From an uncultured Alphaproteobacteria bacterium (lineage in GTDB: Bacteria > Pseudomonadota > Alphaproteobacteria > CBDVDY01), in the NCBI GenBank assembly GCA_965372875.1, contig CBDVDY010000001.1:1-42655 (forward strand): a DNA stretch of 42,655 nucleotides, read 5' to 3'. The position numbers and the translations under genes were made by a program. Positions 14,959 through 30,415 of this stretch are shown here, one piece after another (the stretch's first letter is position 1; each line of letters begins with the position of its first letter). Under the pieces are notes generated by a model that saw nothing but the letters and a program-made list of their open reading frames with translations, ran no database searches and had not been told where the DNA came from.

Positions 14959-16353
14959 CTAATCCAGCGCCTTGACGATGTTCTCGCACATTTGCTTGGC
15001 GTCGGAGAACAGCATCATGGTGTTGTCGCGGTAGAACAGCTCGTTGTCGACGCCGGCATAGCCGGGCGACAGCGAGCGCTTGATGAACAAAACCGTCTGC
15101 GCGTTCTCCACATCCAGGATCGGCATGCCGTAGATCGGGCTCTGGGGGTCGGTCTTGGCCACCGGGTTGGTGACGTCGTTGGCGCCGATCACCAGGGCCA
15201 CGTCGGTGGCGCCGAAATCGCGGTTGATGTCCTCGAGCTCGAGCACCTCGTCGTAGGGCACGTTGGCCTCGGCCAGGAGCACGTTCATGTGCCCCGGCAT
15301 GCGTCCGGCCACCGGGTGGATGGCGTAGCGCACCTTGATTCCCTCGGCCTTGAGGAGGTCCGCCATCTCGCGCAGCGCGTGCTGGGCCTGCGCCACCGCC
15401 ATGCCGTAGCCCGGCACGATGATGACCGACTGCGCGTTCTTCATCAGGAAAGCGGCGTCGTCGGCGCTGCCGGACTTGACCGGCTTGTCGCCGGCCGCCG
15501 CCGCCGGGCCGGCGCCCGCGCTCTCGCCGCCGAAGCCGCCCAACAGCACGTTGAAGATCGAGCGGTTCATCCCCTTGCACATGATGTAGCTGAGGATCGC
15601 GCCCGAGGAGCCGACCAGCGCGCCGACAACGATCAACACGTTGTTTTGCAGGGTAAAACCGATGCCGGCCGCGGCCCAGCCGGAATAGGAGTTGAGCATC
15701 GAGATCACCACCGGCATGTCGGCGCCGCCGATGGGAAGGATCAGCAGGAATCCGAGGGCTAGTGCTATCGCGGTCAGCAGCCAAAACGCGGTCTCGTCGC
15801 CGCTGATCGCCAGCCACGCGCCCGAGGCCACGAGCCCCAGCCCGAGCAGCGCGTTGAGCGGATGCTGGCCCGGGAAGACCAGCGGGTTGCCGGAAATCAG
15901 CCCCTGCAACTTGCCGAAGGCGATCACCGAGCCGGTAAAGGTGATGGCGCCGATGGCGGCGCCCAGGCTCATCTCGATCAGGCTGGTGAGCTTGATATCG
16001 CCCGGCACGCCGATGCCGTACGCCGCCGGCGACGACAGCGCCGCCGCCGCGACCAGGACGGCGGCGAGGCCGACGAGGCTGTGAAATGCGGCTATCAGTT
16101 GCGGCAACGCGGTCATCTGGATGCGCACGGCGATAAAGCCGCCGATGGCGCCGCCGATCACGATGCCGGCGACGATCGTCTGCAGTTCCAGCACCTCGGG
16201 GCCCAGGATCGTGGTCACGATGGCGATGATCATGCCGGCGATGCCGTAGGCGTTGCCGCGGCGCGCGGTCTCGGGCGACGACAGGCCGCGCAGCGCCATG
16301 ATGAAGCAGACCGAGGCGGCCAGATAGAGGAGGGCGGACAGGTTCGGGGTCAT
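14959..16353 (-). CDS. pntB: NAD(P) transhydrogenase subunit beta
   Basis: 464 aa, multi-TM N-terminal part plus a dIII NADP(H)-binding domain (PGYGMAVAQAQH). Confidence 0.95.
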   Translation of the reverse strand: MTPNLSALLYLAASVCFIMALRGLSSPETARRGNAYGIAGMIIAIVTTILGPEVLELQTIVAGIVIGGAIGGFIAVRIQMTALPQLIAAFHSLVGLAAVLVAAAALSSPAAYGIGVPGDIKLTSLIEMSLGAAIGAITFTGSVIAFGKLQGLISGNPLVFPGQHPLNALLGLGLVASGAWLAISGDETAFWLLTAIALALGFLLILPIGGADMPVVISMLNSYSGWAAAGIGFTLQNNVLIVVGALVGSSGAILSYIMCKGMNRSIFNVLLGGFGGESAGAGPAAAAGDKPVKSGSADDAAFLMKNAQSVIIVPGYGMAVAQAQHALREMADLLKAEGIKVRYAIHPVAGRMPGHMNVLLAEANVPYDEVLELEDINRDFGATDVALVIGANDVTNPVAKTDPQSPIYGMPILDVENAQTVLFIKRSLSPGYAGVDNELFYRDNTMMLFSDAKQMCENIVKALD

Positions 16354-16368
16354 TCGGCCGGCCCCCGC

Positions 16369-16800
16369 CTATTTCTTCTTCTTGAACATGGCCAGCATGC
16401 GCTGGGTGACGATGAAGCCGCCGAAGATATTGACCGAAGCCAGCACCACCGCGACGAAGCCGATGATTTTGGAAAAGTCCATCTCGGCCGGTCCGGCGGC
16501 GATCAGCGCGCCGACGATGATCACCGACGAAATCGCGTTGGTCACCGACATCAAGGGCGAGTGCAGCGCCGGCGTCACCTTCCAGACCACGTAGTAGCCG
16601 ACGAAACAGGCCAACACGAAGACGGTCAGGCCGAAAACCAGGGGATCGAGGCCCGCGGCCTTCTGGCTTTCCACCGCGAGCGCGCCGACGGCGTCGCCGA
16701 GGCGGCCCGCCTCTTCGGCCAGGCGCCCGGCTTCCTCGGCCAGATGCTGGGCGCCGCCGGCGAGCTTGTCGGCCTGCGACGTGACAGTCTCGGTGGTCAT
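16369..16800 (-). CDS. pntAB: NAD(P) transhydrogenase subunit alpha part 2 (membrane dII fragment)
   Basis: Internal ATG at 16798-16800(c), ATGA-coupled to the pntAA stop. 143 aa with TM helices and KKKK at the C-terminus. Confidence 0.9.
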
Positions 16801-24059: not shown

Positions 24060-24644
24060 TCAGAGCGCGGCCAAGGACAACGCCTTGGCGCCGGCCGGGC
24101 AGAAGTAGACGCAGCTGCCGCAGCCGGTGCAGTGACTGGCGTGGAATTCGGGCCCGGCGCCGCGGCGATAGGTGACCGCCGTGCCGCCGAGCGGGCAGCG
24201 GTCGAAACAATAATCGCAGTCCGGGTCTATTCCGGCGCGCGCGAAGCAGGCATCGGGCCCGAAGACCAGCCTGGCGATCCGCATTGTCGATGGCGTTACC
24301 GGCCCGAGCGCGCCGGTCGGGCAGGAAGCGGCGCACACCAGCCCGTCGCACATGACGCACGGCGAGTCCGCGGCCACGATTTGCGGCGTGTGGGTCGCCG
24401 CCGCCGTTCCCGCCGCGTCCATCTTGATCGCGTCCGCCGGGCAGGCCTCGGCGCAGTCGCCGCAACCGTCGCACAAGCTCTCGAAACGGTCGGGCGCGGC
24501 CGATCCGGGCGGACGAATAACCGGCGGACCGCCGTCCACCCCTGGCCCCGCCGCCCAGCGGCCGCGCAGAAGATCCCGGCGGGCCACGGTGCGGTCAAGC
24601 GTCGACACGGGATTCTCCGGGCCGCGATCCTGGCATGCCGGCAC
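24060..24644 (-). CDS. NapF-like cytoplasmic poly-ferredoxin (four Cys clusters)
   Basis: RRDLLRGRW...IRPPG N-terminus as in NapF. Clusters CDGCGDCAEACP, CVMCDGLVCAASCP, CDYCFDRCP, CTGCGSCVYFCP. The real start is probably GTG at 24608 or 24587. Confidence 0.7.
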   Translation of the reverse strand: MPACQDRGPENPVSTLDRTVARRDLLRGRWAAGPGVDGGPPVIRPPGSAAPDRFESLCDGCGDCAEACPADAIKMDAAGTAAATHTPQIVAADSPCVMCDGLVCAASCPTGALGPVTPSTMRIARLVFGPDACFARAGIDPDCDYCFDRCPLGGTAVTYRRGAGPEFHASHCTGCGSCVYFCPAGAKALSLAAL

Positions 24645-26133
24645 GCCGGCGCCGTCTCCGGCGCAGCATGGGAATGATGAAGGCGGCGACCGCCGCGAAG
24701 GCCACCGCGAGGCTGGCCAGCAGCCAGAGATTGCCGCCGCCGCGGAGCGTCAACACTGTCCTGGCGGTGACGCCGCCGGCGCCGCCGATACGGATTTCGA
24801 CGTTGTAGGCGGACGCCGGCAGCGAGGCCCGCATCCGATACACGCTCTCCTCGAGCGGTTCGTCGAAGGCGCGCAGCACGGGCGCGCCGCCATCCGTCGG
24901 GCGCAGAGCCACCTCGACCCGGCCCCTGTGCGCCTTGCCGGTCCGCGTGTCGGTGACGGAGACGTAGATCATCGCGTCGCTCGGTATCCCCGACTGGCTG
25001 CGGTTGATGCCGTCCAACGTGTAGGCGACCAGCGTGACCTCGTAGGGTGGCGCGCTGACCTGCACCTCGCGGGTCGGCACTTGCGGGTAGTTTTCGACGT
25101 AGCCGTAGTGGGGCAGGCCCTTGATGTGGTGGGCCAGCGCGTTCGACGGCGGCACCAGCACCGCCAGCAGCGCCAGCAGCGCGGCGAGCCCGGCCGTCGC
25201 GCGCGCGCCACCGGTCCGGGACCGGCGCCCCAGGCCGATTTCCAGGACCTGCGTCGGACAGAGATCGACGCAGGTATTGCACAGCATGCAGCGTTCGACG
25301 TCGATCTCGTCGCGCGGGATGACGGCGACCGGGCAGGCGGCGACACAGGCGTTGCAGCCGGAAAGGCACTCGCCCGATTCCGTGCGCCGTACGCCCCATA
25401 TCCGCCGCCGGCCAACCAGTTCCAGCAGCAGTCCCGTGGGGCACAGGCTTCGGCACCAGATCCGCGGCGCCGCCAGGAGCTCCGAGGCGGCGATGACGGC
25501 CATGAACAGGACGCCGAAACCGACCGCGCCGCCATACACCGCCAGATGCAAGTCGCGGGCCAGACCGGCATAGGGAAGGATGAAGGCAAAAGCGTTGAAC
25601 CCGGCCACGGCGGAAATCAGGAGGCCCGCCGTCAGTACGAGGTAGCGCAGTCCCGGCGGCGCGGCGGCGCCGGGCAGGCGCAACCGGCCACTCCGGCGCT
25701 CAAGCCACGCTCGCAGCGCGGCGTTCATTTCGAGCAACGTATTGACCGGGCAAACCCAGCCACAGAACAGACGCCCGGCCAATGCGGCGACCAGCAGCGG
25801 CACCGCGGCGCCGGCGACGAGCGGCCAATGCACCGAGGCGCTGGCGACCGCGTGCCCGAGCGCGGCCAACGGGTCGTTGATGGTAAATCCAAACAAGGTG
25901 ATCGACCAATATCCGCCGTGAAACAAATCGACCGCCGCGACCGGGCTGTCCAAGCCGCCGAACAGGCGCGCGAACGCGGTGTAAAGGAAACCCGCCCAGT
26001 CGCCGGCCAACGCGCCCACATGCCGCGCGCCCTTGCCGTACGCCTCGTACAGCGCGCTGCCACGCGAAAGCATCGGTAGCGCCAGCAATAGTGCGATGGA
26101 ACTCCACTGGATCGTGCGGCGCAAGGCGTTCAA
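24595..26133 (-). CDS. NapH-like membrane quinol dehydrogenase subunit with a C-terminal extension of about 210 aa
   Basis: FCGWVCPV and WCRSLCPTG membrane CxxxCP motifs. Two ferredoxin motifs: CLSGCNACVAACP and CMLCNTCVDLCP. These are followed by TM / about 140 aa / TM / RRRRRRR. TTG start lies 3 nt after the napG-like stop. Confidence 0.75.
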   Translation of the reverse strand: MNALRRTIQWSSIALLLALPMLSRGSALYEAYGKGARHVGALAGDWAGFLYTAFARLFGGLDSPVAAVDLFHGGYWSITLFGFTINDPLAALGHAVASASVHWPLVAGAAVPLLVAALAGRLFCGWVCPVNTLLEMNAALRAWLERRSGRLRLPGAAAPPGLRYLVLTAGLLISAVAGFNAFAFILPYAGLARDLHLAVYGGAVGFGVLFMAVIAASELLAAPRIWCRSLCPTGLLLELVGRRRIWGVRRTESGECLSGCNACVAACPVAVIPRDEIDVERCMLCNTCVDLCPTQVLEIGLGRRSRTGGARATAGLAALLALLAVLVPPSNALAHHIKGLPHYGYVENYPQVPTREVQVSAPPYEVTLVAYTLDGINRSQSGIPSDAMIYVSVTDTRTGKAHRGRVEVALRPTDGGAPVLRAFDEPLEESVYRMRASLPASAYNVEIRIGGAGGVTARTVLTLRGGGNLWLLASLAVAFAAVAAFIIPMLRRRRRRRAGMPGSRPGESRVDA

Positions 26134-26136
26134 GAT

Positions 26137-26709
26137 TCAAACCCGTCTTGGCGTGATACGGATCGCCTGCGGCAAGTGGATACAGGCGCGTTCGCAACTG
26201 CCGCAACCGACGCACTGTTCGGCGTCCACAACGGGGCGGGCGCCGGCCTTGAGTTTCAGCGCCTTGTCGGGAAACGGGCAGGCGTAATAGCACACGCCGC
26301 ATGTGCGGTTCGCATAGGAGTAGCACAAATCCTCGTTGACGATCGCGGTCCCCATGTGGACCGATTCCAAGATCGATTCGGCATTGTTGGCGATTGGGGT
26401 CAGCGCATCGGTGGGGCAGGCATCGGCGCAGCGCATGCACAGGATGCAGGCCTGCTCGCGCGGCCGGATCAAGGGTACGTAGGCCCGGGCGGGTCCCGCT
26501 TCCGGCGCCTCGAACTGGATGCACTGGTTCGGGCAGACGCTGCCGCACTGGAAACAGCGGATGCAGGCCGCCAGGAAGTCCTCTTCGGGCAAGGCGCCGG
26601 GCGGTCGAAGCGGCGCGGCCTCCGCCGGCCGCGCGCCGCGCAGGAACCAACCCGTGGCGACCGAGCCCACGGCGGTAAGCGCCAGAGCCAGCGCCCGCCG
26701 CCGATTCAT
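26137..26709 (-). CDS. NapG-like periplasmic (Tat-exported) poly-ferredoxin
   Basis: MNRRRALAL twin-arginine signal. LRPPGALPEEDFLAACIRCFQCGSVCP as in NapG. Four Cys clusters. ATG at 26707-26709(c); the maximal ORF reaches 26739. Confidence 0.8.
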   Translation of the reverse strand: MNRRRALALALTAVGSVATGWFLRGARPAEAAPLRPPGALPEEDFLAACIRCFQCGSVCPNQCIQFEAPEAGPARAYVPLIRPREQACILCMRCADACPTDALTPIANNAESILESVHMGTAIVNEDLCYSYANRTCGVCYYACPFPDKALKLKAGARPVVDAEQCVGCGSCERACIHLPQAIRITPRRV

Positions 26710-26752
26710 GCCGCCGCCGTCTCCGGTTGCGTCGCCCACGTTGGCCCCCGTC

Positions 26753-29482
26753 CTACGCGATTTTCTCGATCCGCGCCTTCAGGTGCTTGAAATCCGCTTG
26801 CCCGGAGACGGGATCGAACAGGCGGCTGGACACCTCGTTGACCAGCCAGCGGTTCTTTTTCGGGTCGGCGCTGTCCGCCACCGAAAGATTCCACGGGGAG
26901 AATATCTGTCCGGACATGACCAGATTGCGCGCCGGCCGCACCTTGGAGTTGGTGCCGATCGAGGTCCGCGCCTCGTAGAAGCAGTTCTTTCCGGTTTCGG
27001 GGTCGATGCGCGGCGTCACGATCCGCACCCATTCTCCGTCCTCGATGTCCCAGCGTTGGGCGTCTTCGGCGTTGACCTCCACGTACATCTCCGGGACCAG
27101 CCGCCTGGTCGTCGGCGAGCGAATGGTCTTGGCGGTGTGGAAGTGCTCGAACACGACGCCGAGGTTCAGCCACAACGGAAATTTGCCGCCTTTCGCCTGT
27201 TCCTTGAGCGGCATTTCGAACGCGTCGAAGTCGGGGAGTTCCGGCGGCAGCCCATTGTCGCGGATCTCCTTCAAAACATCCAGATGATCGGTGACCAACG
27301 CGTCCGGGCTGGTGCCGATCTTCTCGACCTTGGCCAGGATTTCCTTGGCCCGGGAATAATCCTGCTCGCACAGCTTGAACCGCGCGCGGCCGTCCGCGTG
27401 CGGGAAATAGCCGTAGGGCCGGTCTTCCCATCCGGTTTCCTGATTGCCGTATTTCCGTTTCAGCCCGCCGGCCTTGGCCACCGCGTAGTTGGGTGCCGGA
27501 TAGAACAGGCCCTTGGTCTCGCGCAGCGATTCATAGGGGCTTGTTTTTTCACGTTCCTCGAGTTCGGCGAGGCCCGAGATATCGGTCTTGGTGCCCTTCG
27601 AAGCCTTGAGGATGTTCCGGAACACGTCCTCCGGATCGTAGAATCCCTCGTGCACCCCCTCGGTCGCCTTCTTGTAGGGGAACACCTTGTCGGGATCGAG
27701 GCCCAGCCGCTTCGCCACCTCGCGGCCCTCGCCGATGATGATGTCGAGGTCCGGCCTGGTATTGGGCGGGCAGGGCACCGCCTTGTCGGTGACGTAGATA
27801 CGCCGTTCCGAGTTTTGGTAGGTACCGCCCTTTTCACCGAAGGTGGCCGCCGGCAGCACCAGATCGGCGTACAGCAGGTTGGGCGCGTGGCGGTAGCTTT
27901 CGGTCGCCACCACGAACATATTCCGTAACGCCGGCCGCAACAGCGACTTGACCTCGGGCATGTCGATGTGCGTGGCGTAGGAATATTTGAGCATCTTCAA
28001 ATCGCCCTTCAGGGCCCGTTCCATCATGCCCACGGCGAAGCCCACGTTCTTTTGCTTGGCGGTCTTCGCCAAACGGCTCGGCGAGACGCCCCAAGCCTTG
28101 GCGATGTAGTCGCGATGCGCCTTGTTGTTCATGCCTTCGTTAAACGGCAGACGGCCGGTAAGCCCACCCATCAGCCGTTCCGACATGGCGTTTGGCTGGC
28201 CGGTCATCGAGAACGGGCCGGCGCCGGGCCGGGCGATGTCGCCGGTCAGCAGGTGCAGATTGATCAGCGAGAGCACATTGTGCTGGCCGTGGATCGACTG
28301 GTTCCAGCCGCCGATGCCCCAGAACGAGAGCACGCCACCCTTGCCGCGGGCCCGGCCTTTCATCGACGCCTCGGCCCAGGTTTTGGCCAGCTGGCGCACC
28401 AGCGCCGGCGCCAGCCCGGTTCGATCGATCACCTGATCCGGGCTGTAGCGGGCCATAACGCCCTCACGATATTTTTCGAATCCCTTGGTGTGCGAGGTAA
28501 CGAACTTGCTGTCGATGGCGTCCGGGAAATCCTTGAGCAACACATGGGCAATGGCGTTGACCAGCGAGATGTCGCCGTTCGGCTTGATGGTGATATTGAG
28601 CGAATTGGTGGGATTGATCTGGTGCAAACCGTCCATCGTGCCGGTGTAACGCGGATCCACGACCATCGTGGGTATTCCGCGTTTTTCCTTTTCGGCGATC
28701 ACCCGCCAATACAGCACGGAGTGCGAACCGCGGGCGTTGTGGCCGAAGAAATTGATCATGTCGGCGGTTTCGATGTCCTCGTAGCAGCCCGGCGGGTGGT
28801 CGCTGCCGAGCGCGGCGAAATAGCCGGCGACCGCGGAGGTCATGCACATGCGGGCGTTGGCCTCGATGGAGTTCGACTGCAGCACCGCCTTGACGAACTG
28901 GTTCTCCAGCCATTGTTCTTCCATGGTCAGCTGGCCGGAGCCGTATGTGCCGATGGCATTGCCGCCGAACTTCTTGACGATACCGACGGTCATATCGACC
29001 AGGAGGTGCGACGCCTCTTCCCAGGTGACCTCGCGCCACACGTCGTCGTCAAAGCTGCCCTTCGTTTTCGACAGGTGTCCGGTCAGCGGGTTGGTCATGT
29101 CCTTGCGGACGAGTACCTTGTTCAGCCGGTCGACGTCGATGGCCTCGGCCGCGGTCAACCCCTTGATGCATTGCATGCCCAGGTTGACGGTGCTGTCCTT
29201 GTCGGGCACCGAGGCGACGATGCGTCCGTTCCGTACGACCAGGTAGCTGTGGCAGCCGACACCGCAATAGGGGCACTGGGTCGGCACCAAAGTCTGCTCG
29301 TCGCCGGACTCGGCGGCCGCCGCCGAGGCACCCTTGAAGTCGAACACCCAATTATCGCGCACCATGCCAAAGGTGCCGATGCCGGCGCCGATAGCGGCGG
29401 CGCCGCCGCGCATAAATCCTCGCCGGTTGACCTTCGCTTCGTCCAGTCCCAACCATTCACCCGACTTTGAATCTTTCGTCAT
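26753..29482 (-). CDS. Periplasmic molybdopterin (bis-MGD) oxidoreductase, NapA/NasA/Fdh clade, substrate unknown (909 aa)
   Basis: Tat motif NRRGFMRGG. [4Fe-4S] motif CPYCGVGC...GMQCIKG. NapA-like Mo-ligand context ANARMCMTSAVAGY, plus TGQPNAMSER and LPAATFGEKGGTYQNSERR. AAGGAG 6 nt before the ATG at 29480-29482(c). Confidence 0.85.
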   Translation of the reverse strand: MTKDSKSGEWLGLDEAKVNRRGFMRGGAAAIGAGIGTFGMVRDNWVFDFKGASAAAAESGDEQTLVPTQCPYCGVGCHSYLVVRNGRIVASVPDKDSTVNLGMQCIKGLTAAEAIDVDRLNKVLVRKDMTNPLTGHLSKTKGSFDDDVWREVTWEEASHLLVDMTVGIVKKFGGNAIGTYGSGQLTMEEQWLENQFVKAVLQSNSIEANARMCMTSAVAGYFAALGSDHPPGCYEDIETADMINFFGHNARGSHSVLYWRVIAEKEKRGIPTMVVDPRYTGTMDGLHQINPTNSLNITIKPNGDISLVNAIAHVLLKDFPDAIDSKFVTSHTKGFEKYREGVMARYSPDQVIDRTGLAPALVRQLAKTWAEASMKGRARGKGGVLSFWGIGGWNQSIHGQHNVLSLINLHLLTGDIARPGAGPFSMTGQPNAMSERLMGGLTGRLPFNEGMNNKAHRDYIAKAWGVSPSRLAKTAKQKNVGFAVGMMERALKGDLKMLKYSYATHIDMPEVKSLLRPALRNMFVVATESYRHAPNLLYADLVLPAATFGEKGGTYQNSERRIYVTDKAVPCPPNTRPDLDIIIGEGREVAKRLGLDPDKVFPYKKATEGVHEGFYDPEDVFRNILKASKGTKTDISGLAELEEREKTSPYESLRETKGLFYPAPNYAVAKAGGLKRKYGNQETGWEDRPYGYFPHADGRARFKLCEQDYSRAKEILAKVEKIGTSPDALVTDHLDVLKEIRDNGLPPELPDFDAFEMPLKEQAKGGKFPLWLNLGVVFEHFHTAKTIRSPTTRRLVPEMYVEVNAEDAQRWDIEDGEWVRIVTPRIDPETGKNCFYEARTSIGTNSKVRPARNLVMSGQIFSPWNLSVADSADPKKNRWLVNEVSSRLFDPVSGQADFKHLKARIEKIA

Positions 29483-29485
29483 GAT

Positions 29486-30214
29486 CTACTCCTTGGGAGC
29501 GAGGCTTCTGAGATAGGCGACGATGTCGTCGATCTCGTATTCGCGTAGTTCGACGAATCCTTGGCGGCCTTTGAGATACGCTCCCATCGGCGTGCCGACC
29601 CGGCCATACATAAGTGTCGCTTTGATGTATCCGTCGGTGGCTGATTTCAGGAACCCCGGGTCGGCCAACGCCGGCCCGCCGATGCCCGAGACAGCGCCGA
29701 TGACGTGGCCACCGCCGGCGTTCGGGCCGCCTTGCCCTTCCAGCCCGTGGCAGCCCGCGCACAACCCCTTGAACAGGGCGTGGCCTTCGCCGGCGTCGCC
29801 GTCAATGGTTCCATTCGCGATCTCGACGCTGGGCTGGTACTGCCAGCTCTTGATGTACAGGGCGACCGCGCGCATATCGTTCTCGCTCATTTCCTCGGCG
29901 AACGACGGCATGCCGCGCACCGGGCGGCCGTGTCGCATGCTGCGCATCAGATAGCCGAAATCGGCGATTACCAGGAACGACTGAAGATTGAGCGGCAGCC
30001 CCATTCCGCCGCGGCCGTGTTCACCGTGGCAGGCGGCGCAGTTCTCTTCAAACAACATTTGCCCGCGCGAGTAATATTGGTTCCAGCCGCTGTCGCGGGT
30101 GAACACTTGTGGGGCCGTGCCGGCGCCGCTTTGAGCGCTGGCGGCGGTTGCGGCAATTGTAAATACAGCCGCGGCGACGGCCAACGCCGCGCGGCGAACG
30201 CTGCTACGATTCAT
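29486..30214 (-). CDS. Diheme class I c-type cytochrome, Sec-exported (242 aa)
   Basis: Internal ATG at 30212-30214(c). Signal peptide MNRSSVRRAALAVAAAVFTIAATAASA. Two CxxCH motifs (CAACH, CAGCH), each with a downstream Met region (RGMPSF, GTPMGAY). TAG stop lies 3 nt before the molybdoenzyme ATG. Confidence 0.85.
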   Translation of the reverse strand: MNRSSVRRAALAVAAAVFTIAATAASAQSGAGTAPQVFTRDSGWNQYYSRGQMLFEENCAACHGEHGRGGMGLPLNLQSFLVIADFGYLMRSMRHGRPVRGMPSFAEEMSENDMRAVALYIKSWQYQPSVEIANGTIDGDAGEGHALFKGLCAGCHGLEGQGGPNAGGGHVIGAVSGIGGPALADPGFLKSATDGYIKATLMYGRVGTPMGAYLKGRQGFVELREYEIDDIVAYLRSLAPKE

Positions 30215-30415
30215 GATTGTTCCCCCAGTGGATCCATGGGTCGTGACGCAATACCTGTGACCCGTTGTCCACCCCTGATCGTCCCTGTCTCGATGATCTG
30301 GCAGGGTATAGTGGGGTACATGAGTCAAGCAGGCGCGAATGTCAAGAAAACCGGTCATGGAAAACCGGGAACCCCGACGGCGCGGCGGGCCGCCGCTTTG
30401 CCCCGTCCGGCGGCC

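What the first reader, a model, noticed from the sequence alone, without database searches (positions are those of the whole stretch)
29486..30214. Class I (Met-ligated type) diheme cytochrome c occupies the NapB position, 3 nt upstream of the molybdoenzyme
The protein has two CxxCH motifs (CAACH, CAGCH). Each is followed at class-I distance by Met-containing segments (RGMPSF, GTPMGAY), as in cytochrome c4/c55x domains. NapB is a smaller bis-His diheme protein. His/Met hemes usually have higher potentials, which would suit accepting electrons from a substrate-oxidising enzyme or linking to terminal oxidases. The TAG stop lies only 3 nt before the AAGGAG-led ATG of the large subunit, which argues for stoichiometric co-expression.
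Basis: partly seen in the sequence, partly recalled or inferred. Interest (0 to 1): 0.6.

Follow-up and report, generated by a model that had tools for sequence, protein, structure and literature searches.

The report
Dedicated two-haem cytochrome of Nap-like enzyme
The gene is a real class-I (His/Met) two-haem cytochrome c, unrelated to NapB, and it is the conserved, translationally coupled partner of an uncharacterised molybdenum enzyme family that sits beside the nitrate reductases Nap and Nas and is probably miscounted as ordinary napA in gene surveys.

Summary
On the minus strand, 30214..29486 encodes a 242-aa Sec-exported protein with CAACH and CAGCH. Each motif is followed by a Met (M102, M210). 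The gene ends in TAG 3 nt before the ATG of a 909-aa Tat-exported molybdoenzyme, and AAGGAG lies in its last two codons.

- **Not NapB.** It profiles as two class-I cytochrome c domains. There is no NapB hit even at E<=10, and its predicted fold matches dihaem class-I cytochromes.
- **Ligands conserved.** Both haem motifs and both Mets are kept in 114-115 of 115 homologues.
- **Linkage conserved.** All 29 loci with a cytochrome at least 49% identical and enough downstream DNA carry the same cyt c - Mo enzyme - NapG-like - NapH-like order, usually with a 1-nt TGATG overlap. They come from Alphaproteobacteria, Nitrospinota, Nitrospirae, Methylomirabilales and Binatia.
- **Wider clade.** Six of six sampled more distant members, one archaeal, also have a class-I cytochrome gene directly upstream, with 1 to 9 haems. 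One of these is preceded by Rieske and cytochrome b genes.
- **The enzyme.** It forms its own clade beside NapA and Nas but keeps their Cys-Met, TGQPNA and Arg signature.

Best reading: a dedicated electron donor to a nitrate-type periplasmic reductase. I rate it a new variant of a known kind, of moderate interest.

The parts
29486..30214 (-). Class-I dihaem cytochrome c gene (P0001, 242 aa)
   Evidence: Translation. Pfam Cytochrome_CBB3 and Cytochrom_C, two stretches each. AlphaFold2 model with pLDDT 85.6. Foldseek hits to dihaem class-I cytochromes.
30134..30214 (-). Sec-type signal peptide (residues 1-27, ...AASA|QS), with no lipobox
   Evidence: Sequence. One hydrophobic stretch at residues 8-28. 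Predicted helix at residues 3-27.
30026..30040 (-). Haem motif 1, CAACH (residues 59-63)
   Evidence: C59, C62 and H63 are kept in 115 of 115 homologues.
29909..29911 (-). Met102 in RGMPSF, the predicted sixth ligand of haem 1
   Evidence: Kept in 114 of 115 homologues. It aligns with the MP motif of CcoP domains.
29747..29761 (-). Haem motif 2, CAGCH (residues 152-156)
   Evidence: C152 and H156 are kept in 115 of 115 homologues, and C155 in 114 of 115.
29585..29587 (-). Met210 in GTPMGAY, the predicted sixth ligand of haem 2
   Evidence: Kept in 115 of 115 homologues. It is also invariant in alignment A1, which includes distant clade members.
29480..29494 (-). Coupling junction: AAGGAG (last two codons), TAG, 3 nt, then ATG of the molybdoenzyme
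   Evidence: Sequence. In related loci the gap is most often a 1-nt overlap, TGATG (17 of 34 loci).
26753..29482 (-). Tat-exported bis-MGD molybdoenzyme (P0002, 909 aa), a sister clade of Nap and Nas
   Evidence: Pfam and NCBIfam scans: NapA models score 283-304 bits against cut-offs of 904-931. Tree. Signature residues.
26137..26739 (-). NapG-like periplasmic poly-ferredoxin with an RRR Tat signal
   Evidence: NCBIfam NapG 121.7 bits, below the cut-off of 269. Sequence.
24595..26133 (-). NapH-like membrane subunit (512 aa) with a C-terminal extension
   Evidence: NCBIfam NapH/MauN 126.5 bits, below the cut-off. Hydrophobic stretches include extra ones at residues 308-335 and 465-492.
24060..24644 (-). 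NapF/NapG-like cytoplasmic ferredoxin
   Evidence: NCBIfam NapF 68.1 bits and MauM/NapG 79.9 bits, both below cut-off.

Best explanation
P0001 is a soluble periplasmic cytochrome c made of two class-I domains, each most likely His/Met ligated. It is the dedicated redox partner of the molybdoenzyme encoded 3 nt downstream.

That enzyme belongs to a sharply delimited, uncharacterised clade, here called clade X. Clade X is a sister of periplasmic (Nap) and assimilatory (Nas) nitrate reductases and keeps their active-site signature.

Proposed path of electrons: quinol, then either the NapH-like/NapG-like module or a bc-type complex and the c-type cytochrome pool, then the dihaem cytochrome, then the enzyme's [4Fe-4S] cluster, then the Mo centre, then nitrate or a similar oxyanion. 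The cytochrome therefore does NapB's job with an unrelated fold.

- Shown: gene anatomy, class-I profile and predicted fold, ligand conservation, conserved gene coupling, separate clade, signature residues.
- Inferred: haem ligation and potentials, physical complex, substrate, direction of electron flow.
For: 1. Class-I identity. Pfam PF13442 and PF00034 each match twice. Nearest solved sequences are CcoP and QcrC. The AlphaFold2 model (pLDDT 85.6) matches QcrC, Kustc0457, TsdA and c4.

2. Not NapB. No NapB profile hit at E<=10, with E. coli NapB as positive control at 5.6e-44. hhalign probability is 4%.

3. Ligand residues are essentially invariant in 115 homologues.

4. Linkage.
- Every locus whose cytochrome is at least 49% identical has the clade X gene directly downstream (31 loci). 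All 29 with enough downstream DNA also carry NapG- and NapH-like genes.
- Of 34 loci analysed for the junction, 17 have a 1-nt overlap and 33 have a gap of 48 nt or less or an overlap. In two of the 33 no start codon could be assigned.
- Identities of cytochrome and enzyme to the window's copies rise together (Spearman 0.53, p 0.001).

5. Wider clade X members (55-59% identical). Six of six have a class-I cytochrome gene directly upstream: 107 aa with 1 haem (an archaeon), 194, 228 and 262 aa with 2 haems, 476 aa with 4 haems, and 736 aa with 9 haems. The 9-haem gene is preceded by Rieske and cytochrome b genes.

6. The enzyme.
- In the tree, clade X (14 sequences, support 100) is separate from NapA (10, support 98) and Nas (5, support 100).
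- It keeps RMCMTSAV, TGQPNA and the Arg, as Nap and Nas do. Fdh has RxCH and RGQNN instead.
- The closest solved structure is D. desulfuricans monomeric NapA at 240 bits.
- In a library of 50%-identity representatives, scores fall from 889 and 805 bits to 481, 388 and then about 300.

7. The window's own genome (79% complete) has no NapB, no NapD, no canonical NapA and no second copy of the cytochrome.

8. A NarX/NarQ-like kinase and a NarL-like regulator lie upstream of the module in a Methylomirabilales MAG. Both score below the curated cut-offs.
Against: - There is no biochemical evidence for any member. Substrate, haem potentials, axial ligands and complex formation are all inferred.
- Class-I dihaem cytochromes also serve as electron acceptors of oxidising enzymes such as TsdB, SoxD and SorB-type partners, so the fold does not fix the direction.
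- Many carriers are aerobic or micro-aerobic lineages (Nitrospinota, Nitrospirae), where an oxidative role is conceivable.
- His170, in a Gly-rich loop of low model confidence in domain 2, is kept in 105 of 115 homologues. It could compete with M210 as a ligand.
- The tree is small: 34 sequences, quick search, and D. desulfuricans NapA is only partial. The branching order of Nap, Nas and clade X is unresolved.
Confidence: 0.62

Rival explanations
1. Electron acceptor. The clade X enzyme oxidises a periplasmic substrate such as nitrite, arsenite or a sulfur compound, or formate. The high-potential His/Met cytochrome carries the electrons to a terminal oxidase or the c-type pool.
For: - Class-I dihaem cytochromes are typical acceptors of oxidising enzymes. 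TsdA and TsdBA are among the fold matches.
- Carriers include Nitrospinota, Nitrospirae and a MAG labelled ODZ_NOB7a.
- The own genome shows no NirK or NirS to deal with nitrite.
Against: - The active-site segment is Nap/Nas type, not Fdh type.
- The operon always carries a NapGH-type quinol dehydrogenase and a NapF-like protein.
- A NarXL-like pair sits next to the Methylomirabilales copy, and a Crp/Fnr-type regulator next to the copy in an unnamed 2.3-Mb metagenome contig (L006).
- His/Met potentials are still below the nitrate/nitrite couple of about +420 mV (PMC6195509).
Confidence: 0.17
2. A general respiratory cytochrome (CcoP-like or c4-like, serving cbb3 oxidase or bc1) that only happens to lie next to the molybdoenzyme. 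JGI's automatic name for relatives, 'cytochrome c oxidase cbb3-type subunit 3', suggests this.
For: Best sequence matches in the PDB are CcoP and QcrC. The best NCBIfam hit is ccoP.
Against: - The ccoP model scores 59.6 bits against a cut-off of 179.95.
- There are no ccoNOQ genes nearby.
- Adjacency to the clade X enzyme is conserved in all 34 loci from several phyla, mostly with overlapping stop and start codons.
- None of 60 same-class genomes has this cytochrome. It travels with the operon, not with the lineage.
Confidence: 0.04
3. A highly diverged NapB, with bis-His ligated haems.
For: Two CxxCH motifs, a similar role in the operon, and no NapB elsewhere in the genome.
Against: - No NapB profile hit at E<=10, with the positive control at 5.6e-44.
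- hhalign probability is 4%, covering 17 columns around one CxxCH only.
- The fold is class-I, and the Met ligands are invariant.
- It is 242 aa, against about 150 aa for NapB.
Confidence: 0.01

Closest known systems
NapB, the dihaem cytochrome c subunit of heterodimeric NapAB (E. coli, C. necator, C. sphaeroides)
   Same: A small Sec-exported two-haem cytochrome encoded in the operon of a Tat-exported Cys-ligated bis-MGD enzyme. It is presumed to feed the enzyme's [4Fe-4S] cluster.
   Different: The fold and family are unrelated: class-I tandem domains with Met ligands, against the NapB family with bis-His ligation. There is no profile match. It is 242 aa against about 150 aa. Its gene lies upstream of the catalytic gene rather than downstream.
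NapM of napCMADGH (Desulfovibrio desulfuricans type, with monomeric NapA)
   Same: A non-NapB c-type cytochrome gene directly upstream of a napA that lacks napB, in an operon with napG and napH. D. desulfuricans NapA is also the closest solved structure to P0002.
   Different: NapM is a tetrahaem cytochrome of another class. Those operons also have napC and napD (PMC5317091, PMC13223375). Here there are two class-I haem domains and no napC or napD.
Dihaem class-I cytochromes: cytochrome c4, CcoP, QcrC (cytochrome cc of actinobacterial bcc), Kustc0457
   Same: Two tandem class-I domains, each with an N-terminal CxxCH and a distal Met. These are the best sequence and fold matches. Like QcrC and Kustc0457, it is wired to a specific partner enzyme.
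   Different: Scores are below the curated cut-offs of all named families: ccoP 59.6 against 179.95, QcrC 48.5 against 200. Domain 2 has a Gly-rich insert of about 25 aa holding His170. The partner is a molybdoenzyme.
Nap coupled to menaquinol:cytochrome c reductase in Campylobacter jejuni (PMC6195509), and the Rieske/cytochrome b genes in the Caldithrix abyssi nap cluster (PMC5317091)
   Same: Electron supply to a periplasmic nitrate reductase through a bc-type complex and c-type cytochromes. One clade X operon (L091) has Rieske and cytochrome b genes immediately upstream of its cytochrome.
   Different: Those systems use canonical NapA with NapB or NapM. Here the class-I cytochrome is part of the operon itself, and the catalytic subunit belongs to a separate clade.

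Membership tests
NapB (Pfam PF03892) | Match to the NapB profile | tested here: not met
   No hit at E<=10 for P0001. E. coli NapB scores 5.6e-44 in the same call. hhalign probability is 4%.
NapB (Pfam PF03892) | Bis-His ligation of both haems | not testable with these tools
   The sequence argues against it. Mets at class-I distance are kept in 114 of 115 and 115 of 115 homologues. Spectroscopy is needed.
Class-I c-type cytochrome, tandem dihaem (c4-like architecture) | Two domains, each matching class-I cytochrome c profiles with an N-terminal CxxCH | tested here: met
   PF13442 scores 63.4 bits and PF00034 74.5 bits, two stretches each and both above cut-offs.
Class-I c-type cytochrome, tandem dihaem (c4-like architecture) | Conserved Met as sixth ligand, C-terminal to each CxxCH | tested here: met
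   M102 lies 39 residues after H63, and M210 lies 54 residues after H156. They are kept in 114 of 115 and 115 of 115 homologues. Actual coordination was not tested.
Class-I c-type cytochrome, tandem dihaem (c4-like architecture) | All-alpha class-I fold | tested here: met
   AlphaFold2 model with pLDDT 85.6. Foldseek probability 1.00 to QcrC, Kustc0457 and cd1 c-domains, and 0.99 to c4. Whole-chain TM-scores are modest (0.4-0.5) because the domain arrangement differs.
CcoP, cbb3 oxidase subunit III (TIGR00782) | Score above the curated cut-off, and ccoNOQ gene context | tested here: not met
   59.6 bits against a cut-off of 179.95. Its operon neighbours are Nap-like genes and the upstream neighbour is an epimerase.
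NapM (tetrahaem cytochrome of napCMADGH) | Four CxxCH motifs | tested here: not met
   There are only two CxxCH motifs.
NapA (TIGR01706 / NF010055), for the partner enzyme | Score above the curated equivalog cut-off | tested here: not met
   283 and 304 bits against cut-offs of 930.55 and 904. Canonical NapAs of the same class score 1506-1587 bits.
NapA (TIGR01706 / NF010055), for the partner enzyme | Branches inside the NapA clade | tested here: not met
   It forms a separate clade with support 100 and a stem of 0.98. NapA, including D. desulfuricans NapA, has support 98. Sampling is limited.
Nap/Nas-type nitrate reductase active site, for the partner enzyme | Cys Mo ligand followed by Met (RxCM[AS]S), TGQPxA and the conserved Arg | tested here: met
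   RMCMTSAV, TGQPNA and ERL align with the Nap and Nas motifs. Fdh has RxCH and RGQNN.

The most novel reading that the evidence does not exclude
The class-I cytochrome is the hallmark of a third, self-contained periplasmic oxyanion-reductase system. This system is a sister of Nap and Nas, occurs in bacteria and at least one archaeon, and has spread by gene transfer. It takes electrons from the high-potential bc-complex and cytochrome c branch as well as from its own NapGH-type module. Nitrate (or another oxyanion) respiration through it would then conserve energy and could run alongside aerobic respiration. As a rarer alternative, the system runs in reverse as an oxidase.
Probability: 0.35. 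Interest if true: 0.7.

Novelty: new variant of a known kind. Interest (0 to 1): 0.55.

Why it matters
Reviews up to 2026 list four nap operon types: napEDABC, napDAGHB, napCMADGH and napAGHBFLD (PMC13223375). None has a class-I cytochrome.

- **Annotation.** The clade occurs in Nitrospinota, Nitrospirae, Methylomirabilales, Binatia, Myxococcales, Kiritimatiellia, Alphaproteobacteria and an archaeon. Sources name it variously as 'NapA', 'ferredoxin-nitrate reductase', 'anaerobic selenocysteine-containing dehydrogenase' or just 'molybdopterin oxidoreductase'. Nitrogen-cycle gene surveys probably count it as ordinary napA or miss it.
- **Recognition.** The cytochrome is a simple genomic marker for recognising the clade.
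- **Bioenergetics.** A high-potential partner bears on whether periplasmic nitrate reduction can be coupled to bc-type complexes and so conserve energy, a question opened by work on Campylobacter (PMC6195509).
- **Evolution.** It is also a case of non-homologous replacement of a redox subunit (NapB) in a well-studied enzyme system.

Tried and rejected
- **Published description.** Seven full-text searches and reading of seven papers found none. Papers on Caldithrix, the cable bacterium, Sporomusa, Bacillus azotoformans, 'Ca. Siderophilus' and the two NapA papers all describe NapB, NapC or NapM systems. Subscription journals are not covered.
- **FNR box.** None was found in the 200-nt upstream region 30215-30415. 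The promoter scan gave only weak matches inside coding sequence.
- **CcoP identity.** Rejected on score and gene context.
- **Context of weaker relatives.** Relatives at 35-44% identity in Gammaproteobacteria are mostly cytochrome c-DUF302 fusions, lying between parE and parC in one locus and after a helicase gene in another. They are unrelated to Nap.
- **Nas references.** The NasC family search in same-class genomes first returned FdsA-type formate dehydrogenases. True Nas sequences had to be picked from lower hits.

Full report
**1. Observation**

The feature lies on the minus strand. Translating 30214..29486 gives a 242-aa protein, P0001.
- It starts with a Sec-type signal peptide (MNRSSVRRAALAVAAAVFTIAATAASA|QS).
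- CAACH is at residues 59-63 and CAGCH at 152-156.
- The junction reads CCC AAG GAG TAG ATC ATG. AAGGAG forms the last two codons. It is followed by TAG, 3 nt, then the ATG of a 909-aa open reading frame, P0002.
- A longer frame starting at 30358 exists, but an identical 242-aa gene call is in the public protein set (P0003) and homologues are 236-270 aa.
- A terminator-like hairpin at 30368-30351 separates the gene from the unrelated epimerase gene upstream.

**2. What the protein is**

Pfam finds two class-I cytochrome c domains: PF13442 at 63.4 bits and PF00034 at 74.5 bits, two stretches each.

NCBIfam finds only sub-threshold similarity to named families: CcoP 59.6 against a cut-off of 179.95, and QcrC 48.5 against 200. 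The nearest solved sequences are CcoP and the actinobacterial dihaem QcrC.

An AlphaFold2 model built on a 23-sequence alignment has mean pLDDT 85.6. Its best structural matches are QcrC, the dihaem Kustc0457, TsdA, cytochrome c4 and the c-domains of cd1 nitrite reductase. No NapB appears.

NapB was tested directly.
- The Pfam NapB model gives no hit to P0001 even at E<=10.
- E. coli NapB, fetched as a control, scores 5.6e-44 in the same call.
- Profile-to-sequence comparison of the family alignment with E. coli NapB gives probability 4%, over 17 columns around one CxxCH.

**3. Ligands**

Among 115 homologues of at least 190 aa:

| Residue(s) | Kept |
|---|---|
| C59, C62, H63, C152, H156, M210 | 115 of 115 |
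| M102, C155 | 114 of 115 |

The pattern also holds in more distant clade members. This is what His/Met ligation of both haems predicts, but coordination itself was not tested.

Domain 2 carries a Gly-rich insert at about residues 160-185. The model has low confidence there. The insert holds His170, which is kept in 105 of 115 homologues. Its role is open.

**4. Linkage to the molybdoenzyme**

Downstream on the same strand lie four genes.
- P0002, with a Tat signal, an Fe4S4 domain, a molybdopterin domain and a molybdopterin dinucleotide-binding domain.
- A NapG-like ferredoxin with an RRR Tat signal.
- A 512-aa NapH-like membrane protein.
- A NapF/NapG-like ferredoxin.

Homologues of the cytochrome are few: 142 hits at 39-91% identity. 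They come from MAGs labelled Rhodospirillales or Alphaproteobacteria, Nitrospinota, Nitrospirae, Tectomicrobia, Methylomirabilales, Binatia and 'Deltaproteobacteria'.
- Every locus whose cytochrome is at least 49% identical has the P0002 homologue directly downstream (31 loci).
- All 29 of those with enough downstream DNA also carry NapG- and NapH-like genes. The NapF-like gene follows where the sequence reaches that far.
- I analysed the junction in 34 loci, including wider-clade ones. In 17 the stop and start overlap by one base (TGATG). In 33 the gap is 48 nt or less or an overlap, though in two of these no start codon could be assigned. One locus has a 407-nt gap.
- Identities of cytochrome and enzyme to the window's copies rise together (Spearman 0.53, p 0.001).

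Cytochrome relatives at 35-44% identity in Gammaproteobacteria have no Nap-like gene nearby. The examples examined are fusions to DUF302.

**5. The wider enzyme clade**

P0002 has many homologues at 55-60% identity in Myxococcales, Kiritimatiellia, Hydrogenedentota and an archaeon. I looked at six of their contexts. All six have a class-I cytochrome c gene immediately upstream.

| Locus | Source | Cytochrome |
|---|---|---|
| L090 | Hydrothermarchaeales | 107 aa, 1 haem |
| L005 | Myxococcales MAG | 194 aa, 2 haems |
| L092 | metagenome contig, unnamed | 228 aa, 2 haems |
| L006 | metagenome contig, unnamed | 262 aa, 2 haems, lipoprotein |
| L007 | Kiritimatiellia | 476 aa, 4 haems |
| L091 | metagenome contig, unnamed | 736 aa, 9 haems |

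The L091 gene overlaps the enzyme gene by 4 nt and is preceded by Rieske and split cytochrome b genes. The class of the partner is constant while its haem number varies.

**6. What the enzyme is**

NapA equivalog models score 283-304 bits against cut-offs of 904-931. Canonical NapAs from genomes of the same class score 1506-1587 bits.

I built a tree of 34 sequences rooted on formate dehydrogenases.
- 14 clade members.
- E. coli NapA and 8 canonical NapAs.
- The part of D. desulfuricans NapA printed.
- 5 Nas sequences.
- 5 Fdh sequences.

It gives three clean groups: Nas (support 100), NapA including the D. desulfuricans enzyme (98), and the clade holding P0002 (100, stem 0.98). Their branching order is unresolved.

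In a library of 50%-identity representatives, scores fall from 889 and 805 bits to 481, 388 and then about 300 bits. The clade is therefore sharply delimited.

The clade nevertheless keeps the Fe-S cysteines, RMCMTSAV, TGQPNA and the Arg. Nap and Nas have RxCM[AS]S, TGQPxA and the same Arg. Fdh has RxCH and RGQNN. A nitrate-type oxyanion is thus the most likely substrate, but this is an inference.

An earlier AI note on another genome reached the same 'sister family' reading. The tree here is my own test of it.

**7. Genome context**

The window's genome is a 3.0-Mb, 391-contig, 79%-complete assembly with 65.6% G+C.
- It has no NapB, NapD, canonical NapA, NirK or NirS match.
- It has no second copy of the cytochrome.
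- None of 60 same-class genomes has the cytochrome. Together with its presence in several phyla at 50-60% identity, this fits lateral spread of the whole module.

**8. Mechanism**

The topology is coherent. NapH-like sits in the membrane. NapG-like, the cytochrome and the enzyme are in the periplasm. NapF-like is in the cytoplasm.

The best-supported reading is electron flow from quinol to the Mo centre, with the cytochrome as the last carrier. Input would come from the NapGH-like module, from a bc-type complex, or from both. The Rieske and cytochrome b genes in L091 point to the bc-type route. They parallel Qcr-dependent Nap respiration in Campylobacter (PMC6195509) and the Rieske/cytochrome b genes in the Caldithrix nap cluster (PMC5317091).

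The nitrate/nitrite couple is about +420 mV (PMC6195509). A His/Met cytochrome can therefore still be a donor, and high potential does not by itself argue for an oxidising enzyme. A NarX/NarQ-like kinase and a NarL-like regulator, both below cut-off, lie next to the Methylomirabilales copy.

The reverse direction cannot be excluded without biochemistry.

**9. Known or new**

Two recent NapA papers give only four nap operon types and NapA size classes that do not include this arrangement (PMC13223375, PMC12769810). Seven full-text searches found no description of a class-I cytochrome partner. The library lacks most subscription journals, so an earlier mention cannot be ruled out.

I rate it a new variant of a known kind. 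The job is familiar, a small c-type cytochrome feeding a periplasmic Cys-ligated molybdoenzyme. Here it is done by an unrelated fold, as a constant trait of an uncharacterised sister clade of Nap and Nas.

**10. Limits**

- No complex prediction was possible.
- The tree is small and was built with a quick search.
- All carriers seen are uncultured genomes.

Noticed in passing
window 24595-25212 (-), residues about 308-512 of the NapH-like protein: After a complete NapH-like core, the protein continues with a hydrophobic helix (308-335), about 130 aa of soluble sequence, a second helix (465-492) and a poly-Arg tail (RRRRRRR). NapH-like genes of about 500 aa recur in most related loci.
   Followed up: partly
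L091:1777-6004: One clade X operon is preceded by Rieske, cytochrome b (N- and C-terminal parts as separate genes) and a 736-aa, 9-haem cytochrome with FixO-like and SoxX-like parts. That cytochrome gene overlaps the molybdoenzyme gene by 4 nt. It looks like a bc-type complex wired directly to the enzyme.
   Followed up: partly
L042:5938-7439 and L052:5950-7430: In Gammaproteobacteria, including a Sedimenticola MAG, the nearest non-Nap relatives of the cytochrome are dihaem cytochrome c-DUF302 fusions of about 345 aa, followed by a stand-alone DUF302 gene. In L052 the pair sits between parE and parC.
   Followed up: partly
window 29665-29739 (-), residues about 160-185 of P0001: Domain 2 has a Gly-rich loop (GGPNAGGGHVIGAVSGIGGP) with low model confidence. 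It holds His170, kept in 105 of 115 homologues. The loop is absent from the cytochromes of the Myxococcales-type operons. It could be a docking loop or an alternative ligand.
   Followed up: partly
L005:1715-3984 and L006:1066-6000: The operons in a Myxococcales MAG (L005) and an unnamed metagenome contig (L006) have a second, divergently transcribed NapG-like/NapH-like pair. L006 also has a Cytochrome_C554/MtrC-like multihaem protein with DUF3570 and DUF4266 genes next to the clade X operon.
   Followed up: no
L002:2485-7427 and 15062-16738: In a Methylomirabilales MAG the module is flanked by a NarX/NarQ-like kinase, a NarL-like regulator, a second dihaem class-I cytochrome and, on the other side, an AioA-like (Rieske_3 plus molybdopterin) gene.
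   Followed up: partly
L003:13559-15225: The Nitrospinaceae copy has an extra NapH-like and an extra NapG-like gene inserted before the NapF-like gene. An Rrf2-family regulator and a further molybdopterin oxidoreductase lie downstream.
   Followed up: no
whole genome G000: In the set of 199,900 species genomes, the 60 nearest relatives offered are no closer than 'same class'. The window's organism therefore appears to be an isolated lineage.
   Followed up: no
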